Translations under genes and position numbers: made by a program
NCBI RefSeq assembly: GCF_001598795.1
Contig: NZ_BCZP01000020.1
Coordinates: 72,879-104,878 of the forward strand
Source: Delftia acidovorans NBRC 14950
GTDB lineage: Bacteria > Pseudomonadota > Gammaproteobacteria > Burkholderiales > Burkholderiaceae_C
Length of the DNA: 32,000 bases
Direction of reading: 5' to 3'
Shown: positions 2,853 to 32,000 of the stretch, piece after piece
How positions within the stretch are numbered: the stretch's first letter is position 1
Layout: each line of letters begins with the position of its first letter
Notes under the pieces: generated by a model
Told to the model about the DNA's origin: nothing
The model's database searches: none
The model's input: the letters and a program-made list of their open reading frames with translations, nothing else

Positions 2853-2984
2853 TCCCGCCTCCCGCACGCCCGGCAAACACTGTGCCTGTGGACTGACAAA
2901 GACGCCCGCATGCTCGCCCTTAAACTGGCCGATCATGAAATTTTGTCAAAACGCGTTGCGGCGAGGACCCCTGGAGGCCATGCA

Positions 2985-4616: not shown

Positions 4617-4627
4617 CACCCGCCTGC

Positions 4628-4643
4628 AGGCACGCTGCTTGCC
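4628..4643 (+). promoter_or_regulatory. Candidate sigma-54 (-24/-12) promoter P2
   Basis: AGGCACGCTGCTTGCC has GG at 4629-4630 and GC at 4641-4642 with N10 spacing. It starts 12 nt after the EBP stop, and its GC lies 38 nt upstream of ATG 4681. Confidence 0.65.
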
Positions 4644-4680
4644 ACCTTGCTTGCACCTTCGTGCAACCAAGGACAAGCCC

Positions 4681-5208: not shown

Positions 5209-5224
5209 ACGGCCTGCAGGAGCC

Positions 5225-5240
5225 GGGCACGCCGATTGCC
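5225..5240 (+). promoter_or_regulatory. Candidate sigma-54 (-24/-12) promoter P3
   Basis: GGGCACGCCGATTGCC has GG at 5226-5227 and GC at 5238-5239 with N10 spacing. It is intergenic, and its GC lies 40 nt upstream of ATG 5280. Confidence 0.65.
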
Positions 5241-5276
5241 CTTGACCACCAACCGTAACTTTTTCTCAAGGGCAAT
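5235..5276 (+). other. Leader stem-loop: 11-nt perfect inverted repeat ATTGCCCTTGA / TCAAGGGCAAT with a 20-nt loop
   Basis: The arms are 5235-5245 and 5266-5276. The left arm overlaps the -12 element of P3. The right arm covers the purine-rich AAGGG just upstream of ATG 5280. Confidence 0.4.
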
Positions 5277-5279
5277 GCC

Positions 5280-5558
5280 ATGGACTTCCTCATCTGGCTG
5301 ATGGTGGGTGGCCTGATCGGCTGGATTACCAGCATGGTCACGAACACCCAGGCCGAGCAGGGCATTTTGCTCAACGTGGTCATAGGCGCCATTGGCGCAC
5401 TGCTGGGCGGCTGGCTGCTGGCGCCGATGCTGGGGCCTTCGGCCATGAATGCGCAGACGGAGGCGCCGGCCACCTCCATGTCCATCTTCGTCTCTCTGGC
5501 CTGCGCCGTTGCGCTGCTGGCCATCTTCAACCTGTGCAAGCGGAGCGTGCCGCGCTGA
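5280..5558 (+). CDS. GlsB/YeaQ/YmgE family (transglycosylase-associated) stress-response membrane protein
   Basis: The 92-aa product is MDFLIWLMVGGLIGWITSMV..GILLNVVIGAIGALLGGWLL. This is the typical Gly-rich three-TM pattern of the family. Confidence 0.85.
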   Translation: MDFLIWLMVGGLIGWITSMVTNTQAEQGILLNVVIGAIGALLGGWLLAPMLGPSAMNAQTEAPATSMSIFVSLACAVALLAIFNLCKRSVPR

Positions 5559-5576
5559 AAGCGGCCAGGCAGCCTG

Positions 5577-7148: not shown

Positions 7149-7476
7149 GGGATCTTCGGGTAGGGCATCACGCGGCGCCTCCCGTGGAACGGAATTTTGG
7201 GCCCCCGGGGGCGGGACCGTGTGGAAGCTGGTGGACTGGTACATGGCAAAGTTTGCAGAAAACCTTGCGCCCAAACGGCAATTTCTGCCGTGGACGCCAT
7301 GACCGGCCCCGCTGTTCCAGAACCGATCCCCCGCAGCGGCGGCAAAACCCTGGGCCCCGTGCCGCCTGCGCAGGGAGACCACAGCAGGTTTCGTGCCCAA
7401 AGTGTATCCAGACGATTCGCCGCCCGCATGGCGGCATGGAGCTTGCGTCTTCGGGTCATCGCACCAAGGAGATGAA

Positions 7477-9039
7477 ATGGGTTCCATGCACCTCAGGGCG
7501 GACATACGCCAGTCCCAGACGCTTTCTCCCCGCCTGCAGCTTGCAGTGCGGATGCTGCAGATGTCCTCGCTGGACTTTGCCGCCGTGGTGCGCAGCAAGC
7601 TGGAGGACAACCCGTTCCTGGAAGACCCGCAAGATGCGCAGGACGGCGAGTACGAACAGGGGCTGCTCGACGGCAAGGAGCTGGGTGAAGAGGACCGGGA
7701 AGGCGGCATGGGCAGGCTGGCCCCGGAGGCAGGCCTGGCCCCGGACACGGGCATGGATGACGGCATCGGCATGGGCATCGGTCTGGACATGGACCGCGAT
7801 CTCCCCGGCATGCAGCACCCGCCCGACCCGGCCGACCACCTGCCCGGCCCCGCCACCGAACCCGCCGACGACCGCGACCTGTGGCTGGCCGACATGCATA
7901 CCGGCGCGCGCCAGGGGGTGGATGGAGAAGGCACCGCCATGGATCTGGCGGCCTGCGAGACCACGCTGGCCATGCACCTGCACGGCCAGCTCAATGTGAT
8001 GACGATGACGCCGCGCGACCTGTGCATGGCCCGCGCCATCGTGGAGTCGCTGGACGACGACGGCTATCTGCGCACCGACCTGCAGGAGCTGGCCGGCCTG
8101 CTGGCCCTCACCCCCGCACCTGACGCGCAGGAAATGCTCATTGCCCTGCGCCTGGTGCAATCGCTGGACCCGGCCGGCGTGGCCGCCCGCAGCGTGGGCG
8201 AATGCCTGTTGCTGCAATGCCCGCAGATCGGCGATGCCCACCTGCGCCAGCTGGCCCAGGCCATGGTGCAGGACCACATGGATGCGCTGGCCGCCCGCGA
8301 CGTGCCCCGGCTGGCCCGGGCGCTGCAGGTGCCACCCGCGCAGATCACGCAGGCGCTGGACTGCATACGTCGGCTGAACCCCAGGCCGGGCTGGAACTTC
8401 GGCTCCTCCCACGTGGACTACATCGTTCCCGACGTGATCGTGCGCCGGGGCCAGAACGGCTGGGACGTGCACCTCAACCCCGCGGTCGTGCCGCGCGTGC
8501 GCCTGAACCGCGTCTACGAGCAGCTGTTTCAGCGCCACCGCCGCAGCGGCCAGAACCAACTGGCCGACCACCTGCAGGATGCGCGCTGGACGGTGCGCAA
8601 CGTGGAGCAGCGCTTTTCCACCATCCTCGACGTGGCGCAGGCCATCGTGCGCAAGCAGCAGCTGTTCCTGGAGTTCGGCGCCATGGCCATGAAGCCGCTG
8701 GTGCTGCGCGAGATTGCCGAGGAAGTGGGCGTGCACGAGTCCACCGTCTCGCGCGTGACCAACAACAAATACATGGCCACGCCCACGGGCGTGTTCGAGC
8801 TCAAGCATTTCTTCTCGCGCCCCATGCTCAGCGCCAGCGGCAATGCCTGCTCGGCCACGGCCATCCGCGAGCTGATCGGCGACATCATCGCGGCCGAGTC
8901 CGATGCCCGGCCGCTGTCGGATGTTGAAATCGCACGCCAGCTCGGTGCCCAGGGCCTGGTCGTGGCGCGCCGCACCGTCACCAAATACCGCCAGCTGCTG
9001 CGCATAGAACCGGCCGACCGGCGCAGGCGCCACGCCTGA
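7477..9039 (+). CDS. rpoN: RNA polymerase sigma-54 factor (RpoN), probably a paralogous/accessory copy
   Basis: ATG 7477 lies 5 nt after AAGGAG (7466-7471). Region I is LRADIRQSQTLSPRLQLAVRMLQMSSLDF. Region II is long and acidic. The HTH is IAEEVGVHESTVSRVTNNKYM and the RpoN box is ARRTVTKYRQLL. The flanking genes are not the lptB/hpf/ptsN set that normally surrounds the housekeeping rpoN. Confidence 0.93.
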   Translation: MGSMHLRADIRQSQTLSPRLQLAVRMLQMSSLDFAAVVRSKLEDNPFLEDPQDAQDGEYEQGLLDGKELGEEDREGGMGRLAPEAGLAPDTGMDDGIGMGIGLDMDRDLPGMQHPPDPADHLPGPATEPADDRDLWLADMHTGARQGVDGEGTAMDLAACETTLAMHLHGQLNVMTMTPRDLCMARAIVESLDDDGYLRTDLQELAGLLALTPAPDAQEMLIALRLVQSLDPAGVAARSVGECLLLQCPQIGDAHLRQLAQAMVQDHMDALAARDVPRLARALQVPPAQITQALDCIRRLNPRPGWNFGSSHVDYIVPDVIVRRGQNGWDVHLNPAVVPRVRLNRVYEQLFQRHRRSGQNQLADHLQDARWTVRNVEQRFSTILDVAQAIVRKQQLFLEFGAMAMKPLVLREIAEEVGVHESTVSRVTNNKYMATPTGVFELKHFFSRPMLSASGNACSATAIRELIGDIIAAESDARPLSDVEIARQLGAQGLVVARRTVTKYRQLLRIEPADRRRRHA

Positions 9040-9051
9040 AACCTGGCGTGG

Positions 9052-9066
9052 TGGCAAGCGGCGTGC
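9052..9066 (+). promoter_or_regulatory. Weaker candidate sigma-54 promoter P4
   Basis: TGGCAAGCGGCGTGC has GG at 9053-9054 and GC at 9065-9066 with N10 spacing. It starts 13 nt after the rpoN stop, but its GC is 142 nt upstream of ATG 9209, and the -12 element reads GTGC rather than TTGC. Confidence 0.3.
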
Positions 9067-9208
9067 CTGTCCAAAAGCCTGTCCGGCCCGTCCTGCCAAG
9101 CCCCACCGCCGTGCAGCGGCTTGTCGCTCCCGCAGGGCATGCCTTGTCCGACAGTTGCAGGCCGCCGCCCGGCCTAAGGTGAAAGCTCATGGACTGAAGG
9201 AGCCCGCC

Positions 9209-9523
9209 ATGGACAACTCACCCCGCCGAATGCATGCCCCCCTCGAACGCCAGCGCAGCGAGAACAACCACATCCGCGACGGACGCTGGCCCCTGCGCAT
9301 TGGCGCACTCACCGCCGCCGTCGCACTGATCCTGGTGCTGATGTTCAACTTCATGGCCCCCAAGGGCCGGCTGGATGCGCCCAGCGCCACTGGAGCGACT
9401 GGAACGCCTTCGCCCTCACCGTCTCCCGCGACACAGTCCGTGTCGCCGCCCGCGCCTTCCGCCGCGCCGCAGCAGGCTGATCCGGCCACGACGCCTGCCC
9501 CCACCTCCACGCCTGCGCGCTGA
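9209..9523 (+). CDS. Single-pass membrane protein with a Pro/Ser/Thr/Ala-rich tail (104 aa)
   Basis: ATG 9209 lies 6 nt after GAAGGAG. The N-terminus is basic, followed by a TM segment (LRIGALTAAVALILVLMFNFM) and a low-complexity tail (TGTPSPSPSPATQSVSPPAPSAAPQQ). I do not recognise a family. Confidence 0.55.
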   Translation: MDNSPRRMHAPLERQRSENNHIRDGRWPLRIGALTAAVALILVLMFNFMAPKGRLDAPSATGATGTPSPSPSPATQSVSPPAPSAAPQQADPATTPAPTSTPAR

Positions 9524-9571
9524 GCCGGCATCCACCGCTCATCACCACACACCCCCAAAAGGACACGCACC

Positions 9572-9766
9572 ATGAATCACCCTCTGCCCCACGCACCCAA
9601 TATTCCCCAGGTGCCGACCACGCCCAACGACCCAGTGGCCCCCGATGATCCCAACCGCCAGCCCGGCCGCCCGCGCGGGCCCGAGCCCATCGACCCGCCC
9701 ACCACGGCGCCGCCCATCGAGCTGCCACCGTCCCCGGAGCAGGAACAGACGCGCAAGGGAGAGTGA
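9572..9766 (+). CDS. Small (64 aa) proline-rich protein
   Basis: ATG 9572 is preceded by AAGGA. The sequence is MNHPLPHAPNIPQVPTTPNDPVAPDDPNRQPGRPRGPEPIDPPTTAPPIELPPSPEQEQTRKGE. Its stop (9764-9766) is 1 nt before the next ATG, and its last codons supply that gene's SD (AAGGGAGAG), which suggests translational coupling. Confidence 0.45.
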   Translation: MNHPLPHAPNIPQVPTTPNDPVAPDDPNRQPGRPRGPEPIDPPTTAPPIELPPSPEQEQTRKGE

Positions 9767-9767
9767 C

Positions 9768-9968
9768 ATGCCACAAGGTGACAAATCGGCCTATACCGAT
9801 AAGCAAAAGCGCCAGGCTCGGCATATCGAAGACAGCTACGAGTCGCGCGGCGTGGGCCACGAAGAAGCTGAAAAGCGCGCCTGGGCCACCGTGAACAGGC
9901 AAAGCGGCGGCGGCAAGCTGTCGGGCTCGGGCCGGGGCAGGCAAGCGGGCCAGTCCAAGTCAAAATAA
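9768..9968 (+). CDS. Small conserved stress-associated protein (66 aa; family often auto-annotated as plasmid stabilization protein)
   Basis: The sequence is MPQGDKSAYTDKQKRQARHIEDSYESRGVGHEEAEKRAWATVNRQSGGGKLSGSGRG. I recognise the KSxYTDKQKR...AWATVN pattern from small proteobacterial proteins, from memory only. Confidence 0.7.
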   Translation: MPQGDKSAYTDKQKRQARHIEDSYESRGVGHEEAEKRAWATVNRQSGGGKLSGSGRGRQAGQSKSK

Positions 9969-10011
9969 CCGCGACTGCGGCCAGGCCCGAGACCCGAGAC
10001 CCGCAATTGCC

Positions 10012-13000
10012 GTGGGAGAAAGTGTGAACTCAGAAGACAGTTTTCGATTCCTGCCGCAGCGCGGCGAAATGCCGGCACGCGTGCGTTCCCACGACTGGGC
10101 GGCCACGCCCCTGGGATCGCCGGATGGCTGGCCGCAGAACCTGCGCAATGCCGTGAGCCTGGCGCTGGGCTCGCGCTTTCCCATCACCATCTGGTGGGGC
10201 GAAGACTTCCGCCTGATCTACAACGATGGCTATATCCCCTTCCTGGGAACCAGCAAGCACCCCCAGGCGCTGGGCCAGGCCGGCGCGCACTGCTGGAGCG
10301 AGATCTGGAGCGATATCGGCCCCATGCTGGAAGGCGTGATGCGTACCGGCGAGGCCACCTGGTCCACCGACGCCCGCTACTTCTTCGACCGCGACCTGCC
10401 CCAGGAAGAGGTCTTCGTGACCTTCACCTACGGCCCCATCCTGGCCGATGACGGCGTCACCGTGCAGGGCGTGTTCTGCCCCTGCACCGAGACCACGGAA
10501 AAAATCGTCAGCCGCAGGCGCCTGGAGACGCTGCACCGCCTGGGCATACGCACGCTGGACATGCACAACGCCAGGGACGCCGCCCAGAAAGTCTGCGCCG
10601 TGCTGGACGAGAACCCCTACGACGTGCCCTTCGCCATCATCTACGAATGCGTGGACACCCCTGCCGCGGGCAGCGCAGGCGCCAGCGGCCCGGCCTTCAG
10701 GATGCTCTGCGCCACGGGCATGGATATGGACATGGAGCTGGCGGCCGACCCCTCGCGCTGGCCGCTGGACCGGGCCGTGCAATCCGATCCATCGGACCGA
10801 ACGGACCAGGCGCATCAGGCGGCCCAGCCGGGCCAGCCCGCCAATGTGGAACTGGCGTCCTTGGGCCTGTCCCTGCCCGGCGGCCCCTGGCCCGAGGTCT
10901 CGCGTCTGGCGCGCATCGTGCCTGTGCGCTGGTCGGGCGACGGCCAGGTCTCGGGCGTGATGGTGCTGGGCGTCAGCCCGCGCCGTCCGCTGGATGTGGA
11001 CTATTGCGCCTTCCTCGACATGGTGGCAAGCCACACGGGCAGCGTGGTCGCGCACGCCCAGGCCTACGAGCAGGAAGCGCGGCGCGCCAAGGCCCTGGCC
11101 GAGGTGGACCACGCCAAGACCGTGTTCTTCTCCAACGTCAGCCACGAGCTGCGCACCCCGCTGACCCTGATCCTGGGCCCGCTGGAAGATGCCCTGCGCG
11201 AGCACGGCGGCCAGGTGCCGGCCGGGCAGACGCAGATGATCCACCGCAACGCGCTGCGCCTGCAAAAACTGGTCAATGCCCTGCTGGACTTCTCGCGCAT
11301 CGAGGCCGGGCGCATGCAGGCCAGCTACGAGCCCACGGACCTGGCCCGCACCACGGCCGAGCTGGCCAGCATGTTCCGCTCGGCCGTGGAGCAAGCCGGC
11401 CTGCGGCTGCGCGTGGATTGCCCGCCGCTGGACGGACCGGTCCATGTGGACCGCGACATGTACGAAAAAATCGTGCTCAACCTGTTGTCCAACGCCTTCA
11501 AGTTCACGCTGCAAGGCGAAATCGCAGTGGCGCTGCGCGATGTGCCCGATGTGTCCGATGTGTCCGATGCGCACGGCGCGGGCGGGGCCGATGGTGCGGT
11601 GGAGCTGTCCGTCACCGACACCGGATCGGGCATTGCGCCCCAGCACCTGCCCCATCTCTTCCAGCGTTTTCACCGCATTCCCGGCAAGCCGGCCCGCACG
11701 CACGAGGGCACGGGCATCGGCCTGGCCATGGTGCAGGAGCTGGCACGACTGCATGGCGGCACCGTCACGGTCAGCAGCACGGAGGGCGAAGGCAGCCGCT
11801 TCACCGTGCGCCTGCCCAGGGGGCATGCGCATCTTCCGGCCGAGCACCGGCCCGCGCGCCCGCCTGCATCGCACCCGCAGGTGGATGAGGCCCTGCGCTG
11901 GCTGCCCGGCGAGCCCGCCCCGGCTGCCAGCGACGAAGTCAGGCCCATGCAGCGGGACATGCGCGGTACGCAGCCCCCACGCGCCCGCATCGTCTGCGCC
12001 GATGACAACGCCGACATGCGCAGCTACATCGGCCAGTTGCTGGAGCCGCTGTATGAAGTGGAGATCGTGGGCGATGGCCGCGCCGCGCTGGCCAGCATCC
12101 ACCGCCAGCGGCCCGACCTGGTGCTGGCCGACGTGATGATGCCCGTGCTCGACGGCTTCGAGCTGCTGCATGCGCTGCGCAGTGACGAGACCACGCGCGC
12201 CATTCCCGTCATCATGCTGTCCGCGCGGGCCGGCCAGGAGGCCCAGGTCGAAGGCCTGCGCGCGGGCGCGGACGACTACCTGGTCAAGCCCTTTTCGGCG
12301 CGCGAGTTGCTGGCGCGCATCGCATCGCTGCTGCAGCTGGTGCGTGTGCGCGAACAGGTCCACGCCGCCGTGCAGGCCAACGAGAAAAAGCTGCGCGCCA
12401 TCATCGACCAGATGCCTGCGGGCGTGGGCGTCTCCGACATGAGCGGCACCATGGTATTGAGCAATGCGCTCATGGACCGCTTCGTGCCGCGCGCCATTCC
12501 GTCCACCCTGGCGGACCGCCTGCCGCGCTGGAAGGGATGGGATGACAAGGGCCAGCCCATTGCCCCCGAGAACTGGCCCGGCAAGCGCGCGCTGCGCGGC
12601 GAAGTGGTCATGCCGGGTCTGGAGATGCTGCACACCGACGACGATGGCCGCGAATGGTGGATGCGCGTCAGCTGCGCGCCGCTGCGCGATGACGACGGCC
12701 AGCTCATAGGCACCTGCTCCGTCATACAGGACATCACCGAACTCAAACAGGCCGAGTACCACCTCAAGGAAGCCGACCGACGCAAGGACGAATTCCTGGC
12801 CACGCTGGCGCATGAGCTGCGCAATCCGCTGGCGCCCATCAGCCACGGCCTGCAAATCCTCAAGCGCACCGCCAGCGGCGACGACAGCGTGCGCCACAGC
12901 CACGAGATGCTGGAGCGCCAGGTCAACCACATGATCCGCATGGTGGACGACTTGCTGGAGGTCTCGCGCATCACCACGGGCAAGGTCCAGTTGCGCAAGG

Positions 13001-13884
13001 AACTGGTGGATCTGAACGATGTGCTGCAAGGCGTGGTGGCGGCCAGCGGCGCGGTCATGGAGGCAGGCAGCCACCAGTTGCGCCTGGAGCTGCCCGCCGC
13101 GCCCGTATCGCTGCTGGCCGACCCGATGCGGCTGGCGCAGATGGTCTCCAACCTGCTCAACAATGCCGCCAAGTACTCGCACTCCGGCGGCCACATCGTT
13201 CTGTCCGCCTGGACCGATGGCGCGCAGGCCGTGGTCTCGGTACGCGACAACGGCATCGGCATCCCGCCCGCCCTGCTGGGCAAGGTGTTCGATCTGTTCA
13301 TGCAGGTGGACCGCAACGGCCGCCGTGGGCAGGGCGGCCTGGGCATCGGGCTGACCCTGGTGCGCAGCCTGGTCGAGATGCACGGCGGCAGCGTGCAGGC
13401 GCTCAGCGGAGGCAAGGGCCAGGGCAGCGAATTCAGGCTGCACCTGCCCCTGCCCACCCAGGCGCAGCCCCTGGCGGGACAGGCACCAAATGCCCAGCCC
13501 GAGGATGCAACGGCCTTCGGCCGCATCCTGGTGGTCGATGACAACATCGACGCCGCCGACACCCTGGCCATGCTGCTCAGGCTGCTGGGCGCCGAAGTCG
13601 AGATTGCCCGCGACGGCCCCGGCGCCCTGGCCATGCACGCGGCGTTCAGGCCCGAAGTGGTGCTGCTGGACATCGGCCTGCCCGGCATGGACGGCCTGGA
13701 GGTCGCCCGCCGCATCCGTGCCGAGCACGGCCGCGACCAGGTCGTGCTGATCGCGCTCACGGGCTGGGGGCAGGAGGAGGACCTGAGACGATCGCGGGAA
13801 GCCGGCATGGACCACCACCTGGTCAAACCCGTGAGCTTCGACACGCTCGAGCGTCTGCTGGCGGGCCTGCGTCCCCTGCCGTGA
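10012..13884 (+). CDS. Double-core hybrid sensor histidine kinase (PAS/GAF-like - HisKA - HATPase - REC - PAS - HisKA - HATPase - REC)
   Basis: The start is GTG 10012 or GTG 10024 (GGGAG lies 5 nt upstream of the latter). The N-terminus is FRFLPQRGEMPARVRSHDWAATPLG. H-box 1 is FFSNVSHELRTPL and REC1 is RIVCADDN..LVLADVMMPVLDG. After the PAS domain, H-box 2 is EFLATLAHELRNPL with N-box NLLNNAAKY. REC2 is RILVVDDN..VVLLDIGLPGMDG. Confidence 0.9.
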   Translation: MGESVNSEDSFRFLPQRGEMPARVRSHDWAATPLGSPDGWPQNLRNAVSLALGSRFPITIWWGEDFRLIYNDGYIPFLGTSKHPQALGQAGAHCWSEIWSDIGPMLEGVMRTGEATWSTDARYFFDRDLPQEEVFVTFTYGPILADDGVTVQGVFCPCTETTEKIVSRRRLETLHRLGIRTLDMHNARDAAQKVCAVLDENPYDVPFAIIYECVDTPAAGSAGASGPAFRMLCATGMDMDMELAADPSRWPLDRAVQSDPSDRTDQAHQAAQPGQPANVELASLGLSLPGGPWPEVSRLARIVPVRWSGDGQVSGVMVLGVSPRRPLDVDYCAFLDMVASHTGSVVAHAQAYEQEARRAKALAEVDHAKTVFFSNVSHELRTPLTLILGPLEDALREHGGQVPAGQTQMIHRNALRLQKLVNALLDFSRIEAGRMQASYEPTDLARTTAELASMFRSAVEQAGLRLRVDCPPLDGPVHVDRDMYEKIVLNLLSNAFKFTLQGEIAVALRDVPDVSDVSDAHGAGGADGAVELSVTDTGSGIAPQHLPHLFQRFHRIPGKPARTHEGTGIGLAMVQELARLHGGTVTVSSTEGEGSRFTVRLPRGHAHLPAEHRPARPPASHPQVDEALRWLPGEPAPAASDEVRPMQRDMRGTQPPRARIVCADDNADMRSYIGQLLEPLYEVEIVGDGRAALASIHRQRPDLVLADVMMPVLDGFELLHALRSDETTRAIPVIMLSARAGQEAQVEGLRAGADDYLVKPFSARELLARIASLLQLVRVREQVHAAVQANEKKLRAIIDQMPAGVGVSDMSGTMVLSNALMDRFVPRAIPSTLADRLPRWKGWDDKGQPIAPENWPGKRALRGEVVMPGLEMLHTDDDGREWWMRVSCAPLRDDDGQLIGTCSVIQDITELKQAEYHLKEADRRKDEFLATLAHELRNPLAPISHGLQILKRTASGDDSVRHSHEMLERQVNHMIRMVDDLLEVSRITTGKVQLRKELVDLNDVLQGVVAASGAVMEAGSHQLRLELPAAPVSLLADPMRLAQMVSNLLNNAAKYSHSGGHIVLSAWTDGAQAVVSVRDNGIGIPPALLGKVFDLFMQVDRNGRRGQGGLGIGLTLVRSLVEMHGGSVQALSGGKGQGSEFRLHLPLPTQAQPLAGQAPNAQPEDATAFGRILVVDDNIDAADTLAMLLRLLGAEVEIARDGPGALAMHAAFRPEVVLLDIGLPGMDGLEVARRIRAEHGRDQVVLIALTGWGQEEDLRRSREAGMDHHLVKPVSFDTLERLLAGLRPLP

Positions 13885-13950
13885 GGACTGCTTTTTTCGC
13901 GCGAGAATTCGGGCTGCCCGATCCAGCTGCCCCAGACGCCACCGAGACCG

Positions 13951-15243
<1,293 letters not shown>

Positions 15244-15497: not shown

Positions 15498-16481
15498 ATG
15501 TTCCGCCAACTGATCACCTGCACCGCCGTGGCCGCCGCCATGGGCCTGAGCTTTTCCGCAGCCGCCCAAGGCACGGCGGCCGACTATCCGAACAAGCCCG
15601 TGCGCATGATCGTGCCCTTCCCGCCCGGCGGCGGCACCGACATCCTCGCGCGCGTGGTGTCCAACAAGCTCACCGAAGTCAGCAAGTGGACCGTGGTGCC
15701 CGACAACCGCGCAGGCGCAGGCGGCACCATCGGCATCACCGAGGCCGCCAAGGCGGCGCCCACGGGCTACGACATGGTCATGGGCCAGAAGGACAACGTG
15801 GTCCTGGGCCCCTACCTCTACAAGAACCTGCCCTGGAACCCCGTCAAGGACCTGGTACCCGTGGCCCACGTGGCCTACACGCCCATCGTGATCGCCACCA
15901 GCGTGAACTCGCCCTACAAGACCCTGGCCGACATCGTGGCCGCTGCCAAGCAGCACCCGGGCAAGGTGACCTACGGCTCGCCGGGCAATGGCACCAGCAT
16001 CCACATCTCGGGCGTGCTGCTGGAGAAGGCCGCAGGCATCCAGCTGGTGCACGTGCCCTACAAGGGCTCCAATCCGGCATTGATGGATGCGCTGGCCGGC
16101 AACGTGGACCTGCTGGTGTCCTCCGTGCCCTCGGCCATCGGCCAGATCAAGGCCGGCAAGCTGCGCGCCATCGCCGTGACCTCGGCCAAGCGCTCGTCCT
16201 CGCTGCCCGACACGCCCACGCTGGCCGAAGCAGGCCTCAAGGGCTTTGACGTGAGCACCTGGTACGGCCTGTTCATGCCCAAGGGCACGCCCACGGCCAT
16301 CGTGACCAAGGTCAACGCCGAAGTGAACAAGCTGCTGGCCATGCCCGAAGTGCGCGACGCCATCCAGACCCAGGGCGCCGAGCCCCAGGCCATGAGCGTG
16401 GCCGACTTCGACAAGATGTTCCAGGCCGACTTCAAGCAGTCCAAGCAGATCGTCGAGTCCTCGGGCGCCAAGATCGAGTGA
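15498..16481 (+). CDS. Bug-family (TctC-like) tripartite tricarboxylate transporter substrate-binding protein
   Basis: The signal peptide MFRQLITCTAVAAAMGLSFSAAAQG is followed by YPNKPVRMIVPFPPGGGTDILAR..NRAGAGGTIG, which is the Bug signature. Confidence 0.9.
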   Translation: MFRQLITCTAVAAAMGLSFSAAAQGTAADYPNKPVRMIVPFPPGGGTDILARVVSNKLTEVSKWTVVPDNRAGAGGTIGITEAAKAAPTGYDMVMGQKDNVVLGPYLYKNLPWNPVKDLVPVAHVAYTPIVIATSVNSPYKTLADIVAAAKQHPGKVTYGSPGNGTSIHISGVLLEKAAGIQLVHVPYKGSNPALMDALAGNVDLLVSSVPSAIGQIKAGKLRAIAVTSAKRSSSLPDTPTLAEAGLKGFDVSTWYGLFMPKGTPTAIVTKVNAEVNKLLAMPEVRDAIQTQGAEPQAMSVADFDKMFQADFKQSKQIVESSGAKIE

Positions 16482-16543
16482 CATGCCTGCGGTGCCAGGG
16501 CGGCATGCCCGGCACCGCCTGCAATGGCCAACGCCGCATTTCA

Positions 16544-16572
16544 TTGATGCAGATCAGCCTGATCTGCATCAA
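16544..16572. promoter_or_regulatory. 29-bp perfect palindrome containing two FNR/Anr-like boxes
   Basis: TTGATGCAGATCAG c CTGATCTGCATCAA. Each 14-mer matches TTGAT-N4-ATCAA with one mismatch. It lies 62-90 nt upstream of hemerythrin ATG 16634. No U-tract follows on either strand, so it is not a classical terminator. Confidence 0.45.
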
Positions 16573-16633
16573 GGAGCTATGTGACAGTCCCATGAATACT
16601 TCTCTGGAAATCACCGAATTCCTGGAGAACGTC

Positions 16634-17146
16634 ATGGCATTGCTGGTCTGGGTCCCCGAGCTGGACACCGGGATTGCAGAAATCGACCGGCAGCATCGCC
16701 GCATCGTCGATTACATCAACAAGCTCTACGAGCTGCGCTCGTCGCCCGACCGTGAGGCCCTGGGCGATGTCATCGGCGAGATGATCGACTACACCGTCTC
16801 GCACTTCGTGTTCGAGGAAAGCCTGATCGAGAGCGCCGGCTACATGTTCGCCGGCCCGCACAAGAAGGTGCACGAGCTGTTCACGCGCCGCGTGATAGAG
16901 ATGCAGACCCGCTTCGATGCAGGCGAGGACGTGGCCGCCGAGCTGCACGGCATGCTCTCGCGCTGGCTGTTCAACCACATCCGCAACGAAGACACCGGCT
17001 ACGTGGATTCGGCCAAGGCCTATCTGCGCATGGCGCGCGAGTCCAGTCCTGCCGCCGAGAAGGAAAGGCTCAAGAACGAAGTGCTGCAGGAGCTGGAACT
17101 GCAGCGCAAGAAAAAGGGCTGGCTGGCACGGCTGCTCAATCGCTGA
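16634..17146 (+). CDS. Bacteriohemerythrin (hemerythrin-like O2/iron-binding protein) with a basic C-terminal extension
   Basis: ATG 16634 lies 6 nt after GGAG. MALLVWVPELDTGIAEIDRQHRRIV..HFVFEE..HKKVH..WLFNHIRNEDTGY carries the H..HxxxE..H..HxxxxD diiron ligand pattern. An upstream in-frame ATG at 16592 has a poorly spaced SD. Confidence 0.85.
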   Translation: MALLVWVPELDTGIAEIDRQHRRIVDYINKLYELRSSPDREALGDVIGEMIDYTVSHFVFEESLIESAGYMFAGPHKKVHELFTRRVIEMQTRFDAGEDVAAELHGMLSRWLFNHIRNEDTGYVDSAKAYLRMARESSPAAEKERLKNEVLQELELQRKKKGWLARLLNR

Positions 17147-24712: not shown

Positions 24713-25252
24713 ATGCAGCTTTTTCACTTCAGCGAAGACGGAGATATCCGGCAATTCCAGCCCCGCCCGGTCCTGAAGGCGGCACCCCGCCGCCAGGGAC
24801 AGGAATGGCTCAACGGCCCCCTGGTGTGGGCCATCGCCCATACGCATCAGCGGCTGTACCTGTTTCCGCGCGAATGCCCGCGCATCGTCATATGGCCGCA
24901 CGAGCACAGCACCCGCGAAGACAGGGCCCAATGGCTGAACGCCCTGCCCGCCGCAGCGCTGGCCGTGGCCTATGTGGAGACCGCCTGGGCCGCGCGCCTG
25001 CAAGCGGCCCGGATACACCGGTACGAGCTGCCAGCCGATACGTTTGAAAGTCTGGAGGACGCCGGCATGTACGTGAGCCGGCAGGCCGTGCAGCCCCTGC
25101 GCCGGGACCTGCTGGTCGATCTGCCGCAAGCGCTAGCGGAATGCGGCACCGAGCTGCGCATCGTCGATTCGCTGCAGCCGCTGCGCGGCGTCTGGGACAG
25201 CTCGCTGCATGCCAGCGGCATACGGCTGCGCAATGCGGCCAGCTGGGCCTGA
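24713..25252 (+). CDS. Conserved hypothetical protein (179 aa; resembles the DUF6886-type family, from memory)
   Basis: MQLFHFSEDGDIRQFQPRP..LVWAIAHTHQRLYLFPRECPRIV. Coding-type third-position G+C is present. No SD is visible. The gene sits directly upstream of the small phosphatase gene. Confidence 0.65.
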   Translation: MQLFHFSEDGDIRQFQPRPVLKAAPRRQGQEWLNGPLVWAIAHTHQRLYLFPRECPRIVIWPHEHSTREDRAQWLNALPAAALAVAYVETAWAARLQAARIHRYELPADTFESLEDAGMYVSRQAVQPLRRDLLVDLPQALAECGTELRIVDSLQPLRGVWDSSLHASGIRLRNAASWA

Positions 25253-25289
25253 GCGCACTTGCATTCAAAGACCAACGCCTCTTTCCAAC

Positions 25290-25637
25290 ATGCCCCGCAA
25301 TGACAACCGCCTCAAGGTCCTCTTCGTCTGCAGCCGCAACCAGTGGCGCAGCCCCACGGCAGAGCAGGTCTGGCGCAGGCACCCTGCCTTGCAGGTGCGC
25401 TCGGGCGGCACCAGTGCGGGCGCCCGCCACCGCGTGTCGGCCGACGATGTGGCCTGGGCCGACGTGATTCTCGTGATGGAGGAAAGGCACCAGTCCCGCC
25501 TCAAGGCCGATTTCGGCCGGCTGCTGGCGCAAAAGCGCGTGCATGTGCTCGATATCCCTGACGAGTACCGCTACATGGACCCCGAGCTGGTGGACATGCT
25601 GCAGACCGCCGTCAGCGCACTGCTGCAACTGGACTGA
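25290..25637 (+). CDS. Small low-molecular-weight phosphatase-family protein (CX5R P-loop)
   Basis: MPRNDNRLKVLFVCSRNQWRSPTAE has the CX5R(S) motif CSRNQWRS in the LMW-PTP/ArsC-like N-terminal position. At 115 aa it is shorter than canonical LMW-PTPs. Confidence 0.7.
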   Translation: MPRNDNRLKVLFVCSRNQWRSPTAEQVWRRHPALQVRSGGTSAGARHRVSADDVAWADVILVMEERHQSRLKADFGRLLAQKRVHVLDIPDEYRYMDPELVDMLQTAVSALLQLD

Positions 25638-25802
25638 GCGCCGGACGCCACGGCGACGGCAACCATAGGCAAGCACGTAGGCAAAAACAGTCAATTGCAT
25701 TCGGACGTACGCTATAGTAACGAACGGTATCAAAAGCACGGTCTGCCGTATGACAAATGGACGACTGGATACCCTCCAGGAGGACCCCCAACCGAGGCTG
25801 AA

Positions 25803-29891
<4,089 letters not shown>

Positions 29892-29908
29892 ACCGAGGAT
29901 GAAGTCAC

Positions 29909-30694
29909 ATGACCACCCAGCTGCAGAATACTGAACCGTTGCTCGCATTCCGCCTTGCCTATCTGCGGGCCATCGCCCGCTCCTGGCAGGATGACGCCTA
30001 CCGCCGTGATCTGCTGGGGCAGCGCGACATCCAGCCCATGCTGCACCGCGACTTCAGCCTGCCGACCCAGTGGCCCCAGGTCGATGTGTCGCTGCGCCTG
30101 AGCGACGACCCCACCCAGCGAGCCGAATGGAAGCCCGTGCTCACGGCCGGCTGGATCGGTCCTGACGATGAATTCGTCATCGTCCTGCCCCAGGCGCCCC
30201 AGACCCATGCCTCCGAGGCGCTGGCCGCCTACTACCAGCTGTTCCCCAACTTCATGGGCATCAGCACCTCGTTCGAGGAACCGAGCAACGGCACGCTCAG
30301 GGCCGCCCTGCCCACGGGCCTGGGCATCCCCGGCGGCGGCCCGGACTCGCTGCTGGCCTTTGGCGGCGTGGTGCTGCGCGCCATCGCCCTGGCCTGGCAG
30401 TCGCCCGAGTTCCATGCAGAGCTGACGCGTGACGATGGCAAGGACAAGGCCCCCGTGCTGAGCCAATGGCTGGGCTACAACAACCCGTTCAACTTCCAGG
30501 TGCGTTTCGAGACCGAGCAGGCCTTCACCTGGGATGCGGCACGCGGCGAATGGAACCTGCAGCGCGCAGACGGCACGGCCATCAAGAACGGCATCGTGCT
30601 GAACTACCCGGTGGCACCCGCCGAGCAGGACCTGTGGGCCATCGCCCTCACCTCCTACAACAACACCGGTGACGCCTACCCCTTCACCTGCTGA
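29909..30694 (+). CDS. RiPP precursor candidate: two tandem nitrile-hydratase-leader-like (NHLP-related, BMA_0021/BMA_0022-type) domains fused in one 261-aa ORF
   Basis: ATG 29909 lies 10 nt after GAGG and 18 nt after the kinase stop. Half 1 reads EPLLAFRLAYLRAIARSWQDDAYRRDLL...EFVIVLPQAP. Half 2 reads DSLLAFGGVVLRAIALAWQSPEFHAELT...NGIVLNYPVAP. Both resemble the NHLP pattern (..KAWxDxxFKxxLL....LVLPxxP). The C-terminus is ..SYNNTGDAYPFTC. Confidence 0.75.
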   Translation: MTTQLQNTEPLLAFRLAYLRAIARSWQDDAYRRDLLGQRDIQPMLHRDFSLPTQWPQVDVSLRLSDDPTQRAEWKPVLTAGWIGPDDEFVIVLPQAPQTHASEALAAYYQLFPNFMGISTSFEEPSNGTLRAALPTGLGIPGGGPDSLLAFGGVVLRAIALAWQSPEFHAELTRDDGKDKAPVLSQWLGYNNPFNFQVRFETEQAFTWDAARGEWNLQRADGTAIKNGIVLNYPVAPAEQDLWAIALTSYNNTGDAYPFTC

Positions 30695-31535
30695 TACGGC
30701 ACCGGCGCAGCTGCAAGGGGCCACGGCCACCTTGCTGCTGACGCTGGCGGCACGTGCCCGGGCGGCAGGTCCGGCAGCTTCCACGGAACTGCCGGACCTG
30801 CCGCCTTTTTCCGACCCCGAGGCGCGCCGCATTGCCGCCGCCCTGCCCCAGGCCAGCGAGGCCCATGCGGCCGACCCCGCCTTTGTACGCAGCGTGGTGC
30901 TGCGCTCGCAGCTGTTCGACCGGCTCACCACCGAATTTCTGACCACCCATCCGTCCGGCCTGTGCATTGCGCTGGGTGCAGGACTGTGCACGCGGCGCAA
31001 CCGCCTGGCACCCGAGGCCGGCACCGCACGCTGGCTGAACGTGGACCTGCCAGACGCCATCGCCCTGCGCGCGCAATACATTGCAGGCCCTGAAGCCAAC
31101 CTCGCCTGCTCCATCCTCGACACCTCCTGGCTGGACACCGCCGCCCTGCCCGGCAACCAGCCCGTTCTGGTGCTGCTGGAAGGCGTCTGCCCCTATCTTC
31201 CCCAGGCTGCGCTGGAGGCCATGCTGCAGCAGCTGGCCCAGCGCTTTGCCGCGCCCGGCAGCCCGCCGTGCACCGTCGTACTCGACCATGTGCACCCGGC
31301 CCTTGCGCGGCTGCCCATGCAGGTGGGCGGAATGCGCCTGCCCGTCGTCTCCGGCTTTGCGGACGGCGCGCAGATAGAGCGCATCCACCCCGCCATCCGC
31401 ATCAGCCTGCAAGAGCACCTGTATGCCCGCTTCTCGCAGCAGCACCAGCTGTTCGAGACCGCCTTCCACGCCACCACCGGCCAGCACCCCTATGCCGTCG
31501 TCCGCCTTGAACTCGGAGCACAGCCTCTTGCCTGA
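30669..31535 (+). CDS. Class I SAM-dependent O-methyltransferase (LCM / TcmP-like, PF04072-type); start uncertain
   Basis: VVLRSQLFD..CIALGAGLCTRRNRL..WLNVDLPDAIALR..VLVLLEGVCPYLP match the leucine-carboxyl-methyltransferase/TcmP family motifs. The only upstream in-frame starts are GTG 30669 (26-nt overlap with the precursor), CTG 30711 and TTG 30732. None has a strong SD. Confidence 0.75.
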   Translation: MTPTPSPADTAPAQLQGATATLLLTLAARARAAGPAASTELPDLPPFSDPEARRIAAALPQASEAHAADPAFVRSVVLRSQLFDRLTTEFLTTHPSGLCIALGAGLCTRRNRLAPEAGTARWLNVDLPDAIALRAQYIAGPEANLACSILDTSWLDTAALPGNQPVLVLLEGVCPYLPQAALEAMLQQLAQRFAAPGSPPCTVVLDHVHPALARLPMQVGGMRLPVVSGFADGAQIERIHPAIRISLQEHLYARFSQQHQLFETAFHATTGQHPYAVVRLELGAQPLA

Positions 31536-32000
31536 GCCCACGGCCCCGGACCTGTTCGTCCACGCCTTTCGCTGGCACGAGAAATTCCTGCCGCCCGTGC
31601 AGCAGGGCGACCGCCTCTTGCTGGCCAGCGAACGCGACACCCTGGCCCTGGGCTCTGCCGCCGTGCTGGCGCTGAACGCCCCGCTGCAGGCCGGCACCAG
31701 CCTCATGCAGCACTGCGCCGCAGCGCCCGATGCGCCGCTTGCACAGATGCTGCACGCCCTGGGCGCCCTGCTGCGCCAGGGCCTGGTCCAGCCGGTGCTG
31801 CACAGCGACTTGAACGGCCACGGTTATCTGCAACCGGATTTCTCGGCCCCGCCCGTGCGCCTGCAGGCATCGGAGCAGATCGACATCGTCATGCTGACTG
31901 CAGCGCTGGACAGCACAGCTGCCTGCCGCTGGGCTGCGGCCGTTGCCGGGGCCGTGGCCACGCAGGCACCCGCCCCCGCCCCCACCCCCGCCCCCGCCCC
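31492..32000 (+). CDS. N-terminus of a TOMM precursor leader-peptide-binding / cyclodehydratase-type protein (3'-truncated by the window edge)
   Basis: This frame is not in the supplied track because it has no stop. It is open from 31378 to 32000. ATG 31492 overlaps the methyltransferase 3' end by 44 nt; TTG 31528 with GGAG 9 nt upstream is the alternative. The translation is ..DLFVHAFRWHEKFLPPVQQGDRLLLASERDTLALGSAAVLALNAPLQAG..IDIVMLTAALDS.., ending in a QAPAPAPTPAPAP linker. It resembles the RRE-like N-terminus of TIGR03882-type proteins (from memory). Confidence 0.55.
   Translation, partial: MPSSALNSEHSLLPEPTAPDLFVHAFRWHEKFLPPVQQGDRLLLASERDTLALGSAAVLALNAPLQAGTSLMQHCAAAPDAPLAQMLHALGALLRQGLVQPVLHSDLNGHGYLQPDFSAPPVRLQASEQIDIVMLTAALDSTAACRWAAAVAGAVATQAPAPAPTPAPA

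What the first reader, a model, noticed from the sequence alone, without database searches (positions are those of the whole stretch)
29909..30694. Precursor is an internal duplication of a nitrile-hydratase-leader-like domain with one Cys, at the extreme C-terminus
Residues about 9-117 and 147-261 align with each other:
- LLAFRLAYLRAIARSWQ against LLAFGGVVLRAIALAWQ.
- EFVIVLPQAPQTHASEALAAYYQLFPNF against NGIVLNYPVAPAEQDLWAIALTSYNNTGDAYPF.

The two halves are joined by a Ser/Thr/Gly-rich linker, GISTSFEEPSNGTLRAALPTGLGIPGGGPDS. The GGG lies at 30332-30340, and GG is a classical leader-cleavage motif.

In relatives this family is, as I recall, encoded as two adjacent small genes, so the family is two-chain. 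Here the two are fused. That suggests either a gene fusion or a single pro-protein cut at the GG site into two chains.

The only Cys in 261 residues is the last residue (..AYPFTC-stop). Thiazole-rich chemistry is therefore excluded. Candidate modification sites are the C-terminal Thr-Cys and the STS patch in the linker.
Basis: partly seen in the sequence, partly recalled or inferred. Interest (0 to 1): 0.85.

Follow-up and report, generated by a model that had tools for sequence, protein, structure and literature searches.

The report
Fused two-domain NHLP-Burk YcaO substrate
This Delftia gene encodes a known but never characterised protein: two copies of one small domain and an almost invariant tail ending in cysteine, probably modified by the neighbouring YcaO enzyme, and this fused form was already described in 2010.

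Summary
ORF 29909-30694 encodes a 261-aa protein made of two homologous domains (hhalign 99.2%, E 4e-19). The domains are joined by a disordered linker, and the only Cys is the last residue.

It is not new. Both halves pass the curated model TIGR03795 (NHLP-Burk, "BMA_0021/BMA_0022 family TOMM bacteriocin"). Haft, Basu and Mitchell (2010) already reported the Delftia and Acidovorax fusion, the C-terminal Cys and the large kinase neighbour.

The proposed GG cleavage is not supported:
- The GGG columns are Gly in only 29-35% of 225 two-domain relatives.
- The linker varies from 11 to 79 residues.
- No peptidase or exporter is linked.

What I add:
- The fused form is the rule across phyla, and split pairs are the exception.
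- The tail YNxTGxxYPF(T/S)C is nearly invariant (N251 and C261 100%).
- Kinase/cyclase, substrate and YcaO are syntenic almost everywhere.
- A carboxyl-methyltransferase-type gene is present in every sampled locus where Cys is the final residue (40 of 40).

Most likely the YcaO makes a C-terminal thiazoline, which is methyl-capped in Delftia. The product and its function are unknown, and I found no experimental work.

The parts
29909..30694 (+). Whole ORF (261 aa plus stop): fused two-domain NHLP-Burk protein, TIGR03795 x2 / PF27793
   Evidence: Uniform coding signal.
29895..29899 (+). Shine-Dalgarno-like GAGGA, 9 nt before the ATG. The kinase/cyclase stop codon is at 29889-29891, so the genes are operonic.
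   Evidence: read directly
29930..30262 (+). N domain (aa 8-118), the Cys-less copy. It ends ..EALAAYYQLFPNFMG, a degenerate counterpart of the C-terminal tail.
   Evidence: TIGR03795 at 47.2 bits; hhalign; pLDDT mostly 84-98
30263..30343 (+). Linker (aa 119-145). It is variable in length and sequence across the family. Only P135 (63%) and G139 (89%) are semi-conserved.
   Evidence: pLDDT below 50 at aa 133-143; column statistics and 11-79 residue length range
30332..30340 (+). GGG (aa 142-144). It is conserved only among close Comamonadaceae relatives and is not a family-wide motif.
30344..30658 (+). C domain (aa 146-250), the better-conserved copy
   Evidence: TIGR03795 at 122 bits; pLDDT 91-98
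30659..30691 (+). Flexible tail NNTGDAYPFTC (aa 251-261). It is nearly invariant across the family and is the inferred YcaO target (Thr260-Cys261).
   Evidence: pLDDT 61-73
25803..29891 (+). TOMM system kinase/cyclase fusion protein: Ser/Thr kinase, cyclase-like, AAA_16/STAND and TPR domains. The longest ORF starts at 25695.
   Evidence: TIGR03903 at 1279.5 bits against a cutoff of 705.75; Pfam domains; syntenic in almost all loci
25290..25637 (+). 115-aa ORF with a partial low-molecular-weight phosphatase (LMWPc) match
   Evidence: PF01451 at 31.1 bits, covering model positions 1-41 only. A full-length 137-aa LMWPc gene occupies the same position in Shewanella.
30669..31535 (+). LCM-type (carboxyl) SAM methyltransferase. 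Its start codon is uncertain; TTG at 30732 is an alternative.
   Evidence: PF04072 at 45 bits; co-occurrence with a terminal Cys
31492..32000 (+). N-terminus of the fused E1-like/YcaO cyclodehydratase (739-743 aa), cut off by the end of the window
   Evidence: In L001: TIGR03882 at 99 bits, TIGR03604 at 211 bits and PF02624 at 268 bits. Window and L001 are collinear to base 32000.

Best explanation
This is the Delftia member of the NHLP-Burk family (TIGR03795 / PF27793). It is a ribosomally made substrate protein for the fused E1-like/YcaO cyclodehydratase encoded two genes downstream.

Shown:
- The protein consists of two homologous alpha/beta domains of about 105 aa, joined by a disordered linker.
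- The first helix of each domain carries the nitrile-hydratase-alpha/NHLP 'motif 1'.
- Only the second copy keeps the near-invariant flexible tail ..YNNTGxAYPF-T-C.
- Across phyla the gene sits between a STAND-type Ser/Thr kinase/cyclase and the YcaO.

Inferred:
- The YcaO uses ATP to cyclise the terminal Cys onto the Thr260 carbonyl, giving a C-terminal thiazoline. Thr260 may also become a methyloxazoline.
- No FMN dehydrogenase is linked, so the ring probably stays an azoline.
- In lineages where Cys is the last residue, the adjacent LCM-type carboxyl methyltransferase methyl-esterifies the exposed terminal carboxylate. Elsewhere one or more follower residues cap it.
- The two domains serve as the built-in recognition scaffold. 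They are not cut apart at GG.
- The kinase/cyclase, FHA and phosphatase-like neighbours control or read out the modification.

Unknown: whether the modified tail is released or the whole protein is the functional product.
For: - Family membership: both halves exceed the TIGR03795 cutoff.
- Duplication: hhalign E 3.9e-19.
- Structure: confident two-domain model with pLDDT 87.7 and pTM 0.85, a disordered linker and a floppy tail.
- Tail conservation in 225 two-domain relatives: N251 and C261 100%, P258 99%, Y250 and G254 98%, Y257 93%, F259 92%, T260 82% and otherwise Ser.
- The YcaO has a leader-binding/E1-like domain (TIGR03882, 99 bits) plus a SagD/YcaO domain (TIGR03604 at 211 bits; PF02624 at 268 bits).
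- The order kinase/cyclase, substrate, YcaO on one strand is kept in nearly all of 57 genome loci, from Comamonadaceae to Shewanella, Sorangium, Myxococcus and Fibrobacteres. It is also kept in Burkholderia.
- No nitroreductase/SagB, C39 peptidase or ABC exporter appears in the recorded Pfam lists within 10 kb.
- Methyltransferase and terminal Cys: Cys is the last residue in 37 of 37 genome loci that carry the methyltransferase. 19 of 20 loci with follower residues lack it.
- Two distant terminal-Cys members chosen as a test (40-44% identity) both have the methyltransferase. Two of three follower-residue controls lack it.
- Burkholderia (tail FTCC) has no methyltransferase.
- Purifying selection: 2-10 nt differences between assemblies, all synonymous.
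- PF04072 members are carboxyl O-methyltransferases, for example PP2A Leu309 methylation by LCMT1 and TcmP (established knowledge, not tested here).
Against: - No experimental data exist for any member, as far as the searchable literature shows.
- The YcaO scores just below the TIGR03604 cutoff (211 against 219 bits).
- The YcaO C-terminus in Delftia (..NPQALYV) only partly keeps the PxPxP-type ending that I recall for azoline-forming YcaOs. That recollection is from memory.
- The methyltransferase correlation is largely confounded by phylogeny. It has two exceptions, where the methyltransferase is present with FTCN (L045) or FTCG (L076).
- One locus (SAR324, L045) has the substrate, kinase and methyltransferase but no YcaO within 10 kb.
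- A hyper-conserved 'core' and two folded 'leader' domains are atypical for RiPP precursors.
Confidence: 0.6

Rival explanations
1. The protein is a pro-protein cut at the GG(G) in the linker into two chains, which together form a secreted two-peptide TOMM bacteriocin.
For: - Burkholderia encodes the two chains as separate adjacent genes, so two separate polypeptides can work.
- The linker is disordered and would be accessible to a protease.
- GG occurs somewhere in the linker of 128 of 225 relatives.
- Databases name the family a 'bacteriocin'.
Against: - The GGG columns are Gly in only 29-35% of relatives and gapped in 39-50%. Many members have no GG at all.
- Haft 2010 lists the GG cleavage motif as N/A for this family and notes that no transporter homologues are present.
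- No C39 peptidase, ABC exporter or immunity gene lies within 10 kb.
- The fused state is maintained in most lineages across phyla.
- Both halves are folded, conserved domains rather than a leader plus a variable core.
Confidence: 0.08
2. It is not a natural-product precursor. The full-length, YcaO-modified protein is the functional entity: an intracellular partner or ligand of the STAND Ser/Thr kinase/cyclase. Its modified C-terminal tail would be read by the TPR sensor, with FHA and phosphatase proteins as the phospho-signalling output.
For: - Both domains are conserved along their whole length and are predicted to fold confidently.
- The Cys-less N copy has been retained and kept fused across phyla.
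- The tail is hyper-conserved instead of hypervariable.
- No protease or exporter is linked.
- The kinase/cyclase is the most constant neighbour.
- An FHA gene is present in Comamonadaceae, Burkholderia, Shewanella and metagenomic loci.
- A phosphatase (LMWPc) gene lies upstream of the kinase in Shewanella, and a remnant lies there in Delftia.
Against: - The argument is purely contextual. Regulators are often encoded next to biosynthetic clusters.
- FHA was not detected in the myxobacterial loci at my threshold.
- The YcaO is of the TOMM/leader-binding type used for peptide products.
- No component other than the generic kinase domain matches known defence-system models.
Confidence: 0.22
3. 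It is a conserved-core RiPP of the PQQ or mycofactocin kind. The invariant YPF(T/S)C tail would be modified, then excised by an unlinked or lineage-specific hydrolase. The result would be a small cofactor, chelator or signal containing an azoline.
For: - An invariant C-terminal tail on a conserved carrier resembles PqqA and MftA in logic (established knowledge; resemblance only).
- Shewanella loci carry an Amidohydro_2 gene between the substrate and the YcaO.
- The tail is flexible and exposed.
Against: - No peptidase is conserved across the family.
- The carrier is far larger and more structured than PqqA or MftA.
- No radical SAM enzyme or oxidase partners are present.
- The Delftia-type clusters contain only the methyltransferase and the YcaO as enzymes.
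Confidence: 0.1

Closest known systems
NHLP-Burk family (TIGR03795 'BMA_0021/BMA_0022 family TOMM bacteriocin', Pfam PF27793 RNP_Burkhold), described by Haft, Basu and Mitchell 2010, BMC Biol 8:70
   Same: - Both halves pass the family model.
- It lies next to a TIGR03903 kinase/cyclase and a fused cyclodehydratase/docking YcaO.
- It has a C-terminal Cys.
- The 2010 paper explicitly names the fused form in Delftia acidovorans and Acidovorax avenae.
   Different: Nothing essential: this protein is a member. Compared with the Burkholderia pairs:
- The two chains are one polypeptide here.
- The tail is YPFTC-stop rather than YLFTCC.
- A methyltransferase gene is inserted before the YcaO.
- The N copy is more diverged. 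Both Burkholderia chains score better against the C-half profile.
NHLP leader peptide RiPP precursors (TIGR03793; proteusin-type and TOMM-type NHLP)
   Same: - They share 'motif 1' (..RAIAxAWxDxxF..LL) in the first helix.
- 20 of 38 family members give hits to TIGR03793, best E 3e-7, not compared with that model's cutoff.
- They are processed by the same class of fused E1-like/YcaO enzyme.
   Different: - The window protein itself gives no TIGR03793 hit at E up to 10.
- There is no conserved GG 'motif 2'.
- There is no hypervariable Cys/Ser/Thr-rich core. Instead there is an 11-residue invariant tail with one Cys.
- The domain is duplicated.
- No peptidase-containing ABC transporter is linked.
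Nitrile hydratase alpha subunit (PF02979 / TIGR01323)
   Same: There is local similarity over about 20-30 residues, matching NHase alpha KVVVKAWTDPEFKKRLLADGTEA. 21 of 38 members hit PF02979, the best at 25.4 bits against a cutoff of 27.2.
   Different: - The window protein scores only 10.9 bits.
- It lacks the CxxCSC metal site, having only one Cys.
- A profile search against PDB sequences gives no hit.
- Foldseek of the confident model against PDB gives nothing (best E 0.45, TM about 0.1).
- It is not an enzyme subunit.
Protein and small-molecule carboxyl O-methyltransferases of the LCM family (PF04072; PP2A LCMT1, TcmP). This comparison concerns the neighbouring gene.
   Same: The downstream gene matches PF04072 (45 bits). 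In all 40 sampled loci where the substrate's last residue is the conserved Cys, that gene is present. This fits capping of a C-terminal carboxylate.
   Different: Its activity and substrate are untested. It scores below the TIGR00027 cutoff (38.7 against 93.55 bits). There are two exceptions to the correlation.

Membership tests
NHLP-Burk (TIGR03795 / PF27793) | Sequence scores above the curated cutoff of the family model | tested here: met
   Whole protein 167.8 bits, N half 47.2 bits and C half 122 bits, against a cutoff of 41. PF27793 is recorded for the identical protein.
NHLP-Burk (TIGR03795 / PF27793) | Encoded next to a fused cyclodehydratase/docking (E1-like plus YcaO) protein | tested here: met
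   A 739-aa YcaO lies two genes downstream, with TIGR03882 at 99 bits and PF02624 at 268 bits. Its start is inside the window at 31492.
NHLP-Burk (TIGR03795 / PF27793) | Accompanied by the large TOMM kinase/cyclase fusion protein (TIGR03903) | tested here: met
   1279.5 bits against a cutoff of 705.75, directly upstream
NHLP-Burk (TIGR03795 / PF27793) | Two copies, tandem or fused, with one copy ending in Cys or Cys-Cys | tested here: met
   Two domains, with Cys261 as the last residue. The Burkholderia pair ends ..ITIME and ..FTCC.
NHLP-Burk (TIGR03795 / PF27793) | Actually modified by the YcaO to give an azol(in)e product | not testable with these tools
   No experimental report was found. 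Co-expression and mass spectrometry are needed.
NHLP leader peptide precursors (TIGR03793) | Scores above the model cutoff | tested here: not met
   The window protein has no hit at E up to 10. 20 of 38 relatives hit at E up to 10, best 3e-7, not compared with the model's cutoff.
NHLP leader peptide precursors (TIGR03793) | Conserved double-glycine leader cleavage motif (motif 2) before a variable core | tested here: not met
   The GGG columns are Gly in 29-35% of relatives and gapped in 39-50%. Haft's Table 3 lists the motif as N/A. The tail is invariant, not variable.
Nitrile hydratase alpha subunit (PF02979 / TIGR01323) | Scores above the gathering threshold and has the CxxCSC metal-binding motif | tested here: not met
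   10.9 bits against a threshold of 27.2. There is a single Cys at the C-terminus. No PDB sequence or fold match.
Thiazole/oxazole-modified microcin (TOMM) cluster in the classical sense | Cyclodehydratase plus an FMN-dependent SagB-type dehydrogenase | tested here: not met
   The cyclodehydratase is present. No nitroreductase/SagB family appears in the recorded Pfam lists within 10 kb in six Delftia loci.
Double-glycine-leader bacteriocins (class II / two-peptide) | C39-peptidase ABC transporter and immunity gene linked to the precursor | tested here: not met
   None within 10 kb. Haft 2010 also found no transporter homologues in species carrying NHLP-Burk.
Known anti-phage defence systems (PADLOC) | Components match the defence-system models | tested here: not met
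   Only the generic kinase domain matches (PD-T4-6, mad6). The substrate, methyltransferase, YcaO, FHA protein and 111-aa ORF give no hits.

The most novel reading that the evidence does not exclude
RiPP-type machinery has been co-opted for protein-level signalling. A YcaO installs a C-terminal azoline on a folded, pseudo-dimeric two-domain protein. The azoline is methyl-capped where Cys is terminal. The modified tail is the ligand or switch for a STAND Ser/Thr kinase/cyclase, with an FHA and phosphatase read-out. On this reading the product is an intracellular regulatory or stress module rather than a secreted bacteriocin.
Probability: 0.22. Interest if true: 0.7.

Novelty: already known. Interest (0 to 1): 0.3.

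Why it matters
As submitted, the finding repeats a 2010 bioinformatic description and a standard annotation, so it changes nothing by itself.

The family is still worth attention. It is widespread: 509 cluster representatives at 50% identity match the profile, from Burkholderiales to myxobacteria, Shewanella and Fibrobacteres. I found no experimental characterisation of any member. It also breaks the usual RiPP rules: it has two folded domains, an invariant one-Cys tail, and no linked protease, exporter or dehydrogenase.

The first is a -18 Da change at Thr260-Cys261 made by the YcaO. The second is a +14 Da carboxyl methyl ester made by the LCM-type methyltransferase, expected in lineages where Cys is the last residue.

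Tried and rejected
- Sequencing or assembly artefact (hidden stop or frameshift at 30300-30350): rejected. The coding signal is uniform. Identical proteins are encoded by assemblies that differ only at synonymous sites. 57 genomes carry fused orthologues.
- Nitrile hydratase alpha fold: Foldseek of the confident model against PDB found nothing. The family profile found no PDB sequence. Only motif 1 similarity remains.
- GG cleavage site and STS patch: rejected on conservation.
- Apparent short 'single-chain' hits P0242, P0243 and P0244 as evidence for split genes: rejected. The P0243 contigs break about 40 nt upstream of the call, so that call looks like a truncated fused gene, and P0242 begins inside the linker. 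P0244 is only inferred to be the same, because it starts mid-domain.
- Known defence system: only generic kinase-domain hits.
- Literature searches for experimental work found only Haft 2010, Cox 2015 and passing mentions. One search was wasted on the prefix 'Daci'.
- Orthology of the Burkholderia Cys-less chain to the N half: inconclusive, at 62 against 58 bits.
Full report
**1. What is there**

ORF 29909-30694 on the + strand encodes 261 aa. A GAGGA lies 9 nt upstream of the ATG, and only 17 nt separate it from the stop codon of the upstream gene. The window has about 68% G+C, so long spurious ORFs are common. One example is the 1686-aa antisense ORF at 24888-29948.

This ORF, however, has the coding signature of the genome: GC3 0.88 and GC2 0.47. 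The signature is uniform from start to stop, including the region 30300-30350.

The translation has one Cys, at residue 261, the last one. GGG is aa 142-144, nt 30332-30340.

**2. Is the duplication real?**

Yes. Three lines of evidence agree:
- NCBIfam TIGR03795 matches twice. The N half scores 47.2 bits (E 2e-12) and the C half 122 bits (E 1.5e-35), against a cutoff of 41.
- BLASTP of one half against the other is only marginal (E 1e-4 over 41 residues).
- Profiles built from 38 relatives align N halves to C halves with hhalign probability 99.15% and E 3.9e-19 over 97 columns.

An AlphaFold2 model built on the 38-sequence alignment is confident (pLDDT 87.7, pTM 0.85). It shows two similar alpha/beta domains at aa 10-111 and 145-250. 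The linker is disordered (aa 133-143, pLDDT below 50). The C-terminal tail is less confident (aa 251-261, pLDDT 61-73).

**3. Not an artefact**

- The identical 261-aa product is indexed in 68 blocks of the assembly collection.
- Six independent assemblies differ from the window by 2-10 nt within the 786-nt gene, yet all encode the same protein.
- 57 species-level genomes carry a fused orthologue.

The closest named genomes are Delftia tsuruhatensis and D. acidovorans at 98% protein identity, so the window is from Delftia.

**4. It is already described**

TIGR03795 is the 'NHLP-Burk' family of Haft, Basu and Mitchell (BMC Biol 2010; PMC2887384). That paper makes the following points:
- The family occurs as tandem gene pairs in Burkholderia.
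- One member of each pair ends in Cys or Cys-Cys.
- The clusters carry a large Ser/Thr kinase.
- The GG 'motif 2' is not applicable to this family (Table 3).
- No NHLP-type transporter homologue occurs in these species.

Cox et al. 2015 (PMC4603692) repeat the point. Public annotations already name the orthologues 'BMA_0021/BMA_0022 family TOMM bacteriocin' or 'ribosomally synthesized peptide (two-chain TOMM family)'. I found no experimental characterisation of any member.

**5. Neighbourhood**

Inside the window:
- Upstream, at 25803-29891, is the TIGR03903 TOMM kinase/cyclase fusion protein (1279.5 bits). It contains Ser/Thr kinase, cyclase-like, AAA_16/STAND and TPR domains.
- Before that, at 25290-25637, is a 115-aa ORF with a partial low-molecular-weight phosphatase match.
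- Downstream, at 30669-31535, is an LCM-type methyltransferase (PF04072).
- At 31492 starts a 739-aa fused E1-like/YcaO protein that runs off the window. It matches TIGR03882 (99 bits), TIGR03604 (211 bits against a cutoff of 219) and PF02624 (268 bits).

Beyond the window follow a 314-aa FHA protein and a conserved 111-aa ORF.

No SagB-type dehydrogenase, C39 peptidase or ABC exporter appears within 10 kb. The rest of the window (1-25000) holds unrelated regulators and metabolic genes.

(a) The fused form is the rule.
- An exhaustive HMMER search finds 509 representatives at 50% identity with E up to 1e-3.
- The top 150 are almost all proteins of 240-360 aa matched end to end.
- Fused loci occur in Comamonadaceae, Rivihabitans, Aquabacterium, SAR324, Shewanella, Desulfogranum, Sorangium and other Polyangiaceae, Myxococcus and Fibrobacteres.
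- The split arrangement is confirmed in Burkholderia. There the order is FHA, kinase/cyclase, a 114-aa chain ending ..ITIME, a 16-nt gap, a 120-aa chain ending ..YLFTCC, then the YcaO, with no methyltransferase.
- Both Burkholderia chains resemble the C half more than the N half (79 against 59 bits, and 62 against 58 bits).
- The order is the same in both forms: Cys-less copy first, Cys-bearing copy second.

(b) The tail is nearly invariant. In 225 two-domain members the conservation is as follows:

| Residue | Conservation |
|---|---|
| N251 | 100% |
| C261 | 100% |
| P258 | 99% |
| Y250 | 98% |
| G254 | 98% |
| Y257 | 93% |
| F259 | 92% |
| T260 | 82%, otherwise Ser |

The Cys is either the last residue or is followed by 1-6 residues, which often include further Cys.

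(c) The linker is not conserved.
- Its length ranges from 11 to 79 residues.
- The GGG columns are Gly in 29-35% of members and gapped in 39-50%.
- The STS patch is variable.
- Only P135 (63%) and G139 (89%) stand out.

(d) Synteny. The order kinase/cyclase, substrate, YcaO on one strand is kept in almost all loci.

(e) Methyltransferase and terminal Cys.
- In the 57 genome loci, Cys is the last residue in all 37 loci that carry the methyltransferase. 19 of 20 loci with follower residues lack it.
- I tested this as a prediction on distant metagenomic members. Two terminal-Cys proteins at 40-44% identity both have the methyltransferase immediately downstream.
- Two follower-residue controls lack it. 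One, ending FTCG, has it.
- The P0243 loci (terminal Cys) have the methyltransferase. Burkholderia (FTCC) has none.
- Taken together, every sampled locus with a terminal Cys has the methyltransferase (40 of 40). The methyltransferase also occurs with a single follower residue in two cases.
- The association is partly phylogenetic, so it is suggestive rather than proven.

(f) Shewanella loci differ in two ways. An Amidohydro_2 gene replaces the methyltransferase, and a full-length LMW phosphatase gene sits before the kinase.

**7. Relationship to NHLP and nitrile hydratase alpha**

The relationship is real at the family level, but it is local and weak.
- Of 38 members, 20 hit TIGR03793 (best E 3e-7), 17 hit TIGR01323 (best 6.8e-6) and 21 hit PF02979 (best 25.4 bits against a cutoff of 27.2).
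- The PF02979 and PDB matches lie over the first-helix motif ..RAIAxAWxDxxF..LL.
- The window protein reaches only 10.9 bits on PF02979 and gives nothing on TIGR03793.
- The family profile finds no PDB sequence.
- Foldseek of the model against PDB finds nothing (best E 0.45).

'Nitrile-hydratase-leader-like' is therefore acceptable as a clan-level statement, not as a fold or membership statement.

**8. Mechanism**

Shown:
- A two-domain folded protein with an exposed invariant ..YPF(T/S)C tail.
- It is co-inherited with a leader-binding YcaO and a STAND kinase/cyclase.

Inferred:
- The YcaO cyclodehydrates Cys261 onto the Thr260 carbonyl to give a thiazoline. With no dehydrogenase linked, the ring probably remains an azoline.
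- The LCM-type enzyme belongs to a family of carboxyl O-methyltransferases (established knowledge). It probably caps the terminal carboxylate where no follower residue does so.

Not supported: cleavage at GG into two chains.

Open: whether the tail is released, or whether the intact modified protein works together with the kinase/cyclase, FHA protein and phosphatase. I rate the 'protein-level signalling' reading at about 0.2. PADLOC gives no support for a known defence system.

**9. Verdict**

The duplication, the fusion and the C-terminal site hold. The GG cleavage and the STS patch do not.
- The finding as stated is already known. It is a named member of a published, curated family, and Delftia is mentioned explicitly in the 2010 paper.

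Residual interest lies in the family being uncharacterised and atypical, and in the testable prediction about the terminal Cys and the methyltransferase.

Noticed in passing
window 30669-31535 (methyltransferase gene) and loci L007-L063, L065-L077: The LCM-type methyltransferase gene directly after the substrate gene is present in every sampled locus where the conserved Cys is the very last residue (40 of 40). It is absent from 22 of 24 loci with follower residues. The exceptions are L045 (FTCN) and L076 (FTCG).
   Followed up: yes
window 25290-25637 (+); L046 5416-5829: A 115-aa ORF upstream of the kinase/cyclase matches only the first 41 positions of the LMW phosphotyrosine phosphatase model. 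Shewanella has a full-length 137-aa LMWPc gene in the same position. A phosphatase may be an unrecognised component of the system.
   Followed up: partly
L064 2710-3084 (protein P0174, metagenome contig): This 124-aa single-domain variant sits directly after the kinase gene. It starts like the N copy (PLLDFRLAYLRAV) and continues like the C copy through to ..AYPFTC. It looks as if recombination between the two repeats deleted one unit. A misassembly is not excluded.
   Followed up: no
protein P0248 (142 aa, metagenome): This single-domain protein carries both NHase_alpha (PF02979) and RNP_Burkhold (PF27793) hits and ends ..YPFTFC. It may be an intermediate between the NHLP/NHase-alpha families and NHLP-Burk.
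   Followed up: no
L046 10922-12163 (also L047, L049, L063): In Shewanella loci an Amidohydro_2 (PF04909) gene lies between the substrate (tail FTCC) and the YcaO, in place of the methyltransferase.
   Followed up: partly
L045 (SAR324 MAG) 2719-14128: This locus has FHA, kinase/cyclase, substrate (FTCN) and methyltransferase genes but no YcaO within 10 kb. It also has a separate 422-aa adenylate/guanylate cyclase gene upstream.
   Followed up: partly
L001 15067-15402 (outside the window, about 4.4 kb downstream of the substrate gene): A 111-aa ORF after the FHA gene is conserved across Comamonadaceae loci (phmmer 39-246 bits). It has no Pfam, NCBIfam or PADLOC match.
   Followed up: no
L001, L048 and others: C-termini of the YcaO proteins: The YcaO ends ..LNPVPLFV or ..LNPVPLLV in the myxobacterial and Fibrobacteres loci shown, and ..LNPQALYV in Delftia and ..LNPHWLYI in Shewanella. 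This only partly matches the Pro-rich C-terminal motif that I recall for azoline-forming YcaOs.
   Followed up: no
window 2910-4616, 7393-9039, 10012-13884: An NtrC-type sigma-54 activator, an RpoN-like sigma-54 gene (500 bits on NF009118) and a 1290-aa hybrid histidine kinase with two kinase cores are clustered here. They are unrelated to the finding.
   Followed up: no
window 16478-17146 (+): A bacteriohemerythrin (NF002007, 248 bits) with an N-terminal extension of about 50 residues relative to the model. The called start codon may simply be too far upstream.
   Followed up: no
window 24888-29948 (-): A 1686-aa antisense ORF overlaps the kinase/cyclase gene and the start of the substrate gene. 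The codon-position GC pattern favours the + strand genes, so this ORF is a high-GC artefact.
   Followed up: yes
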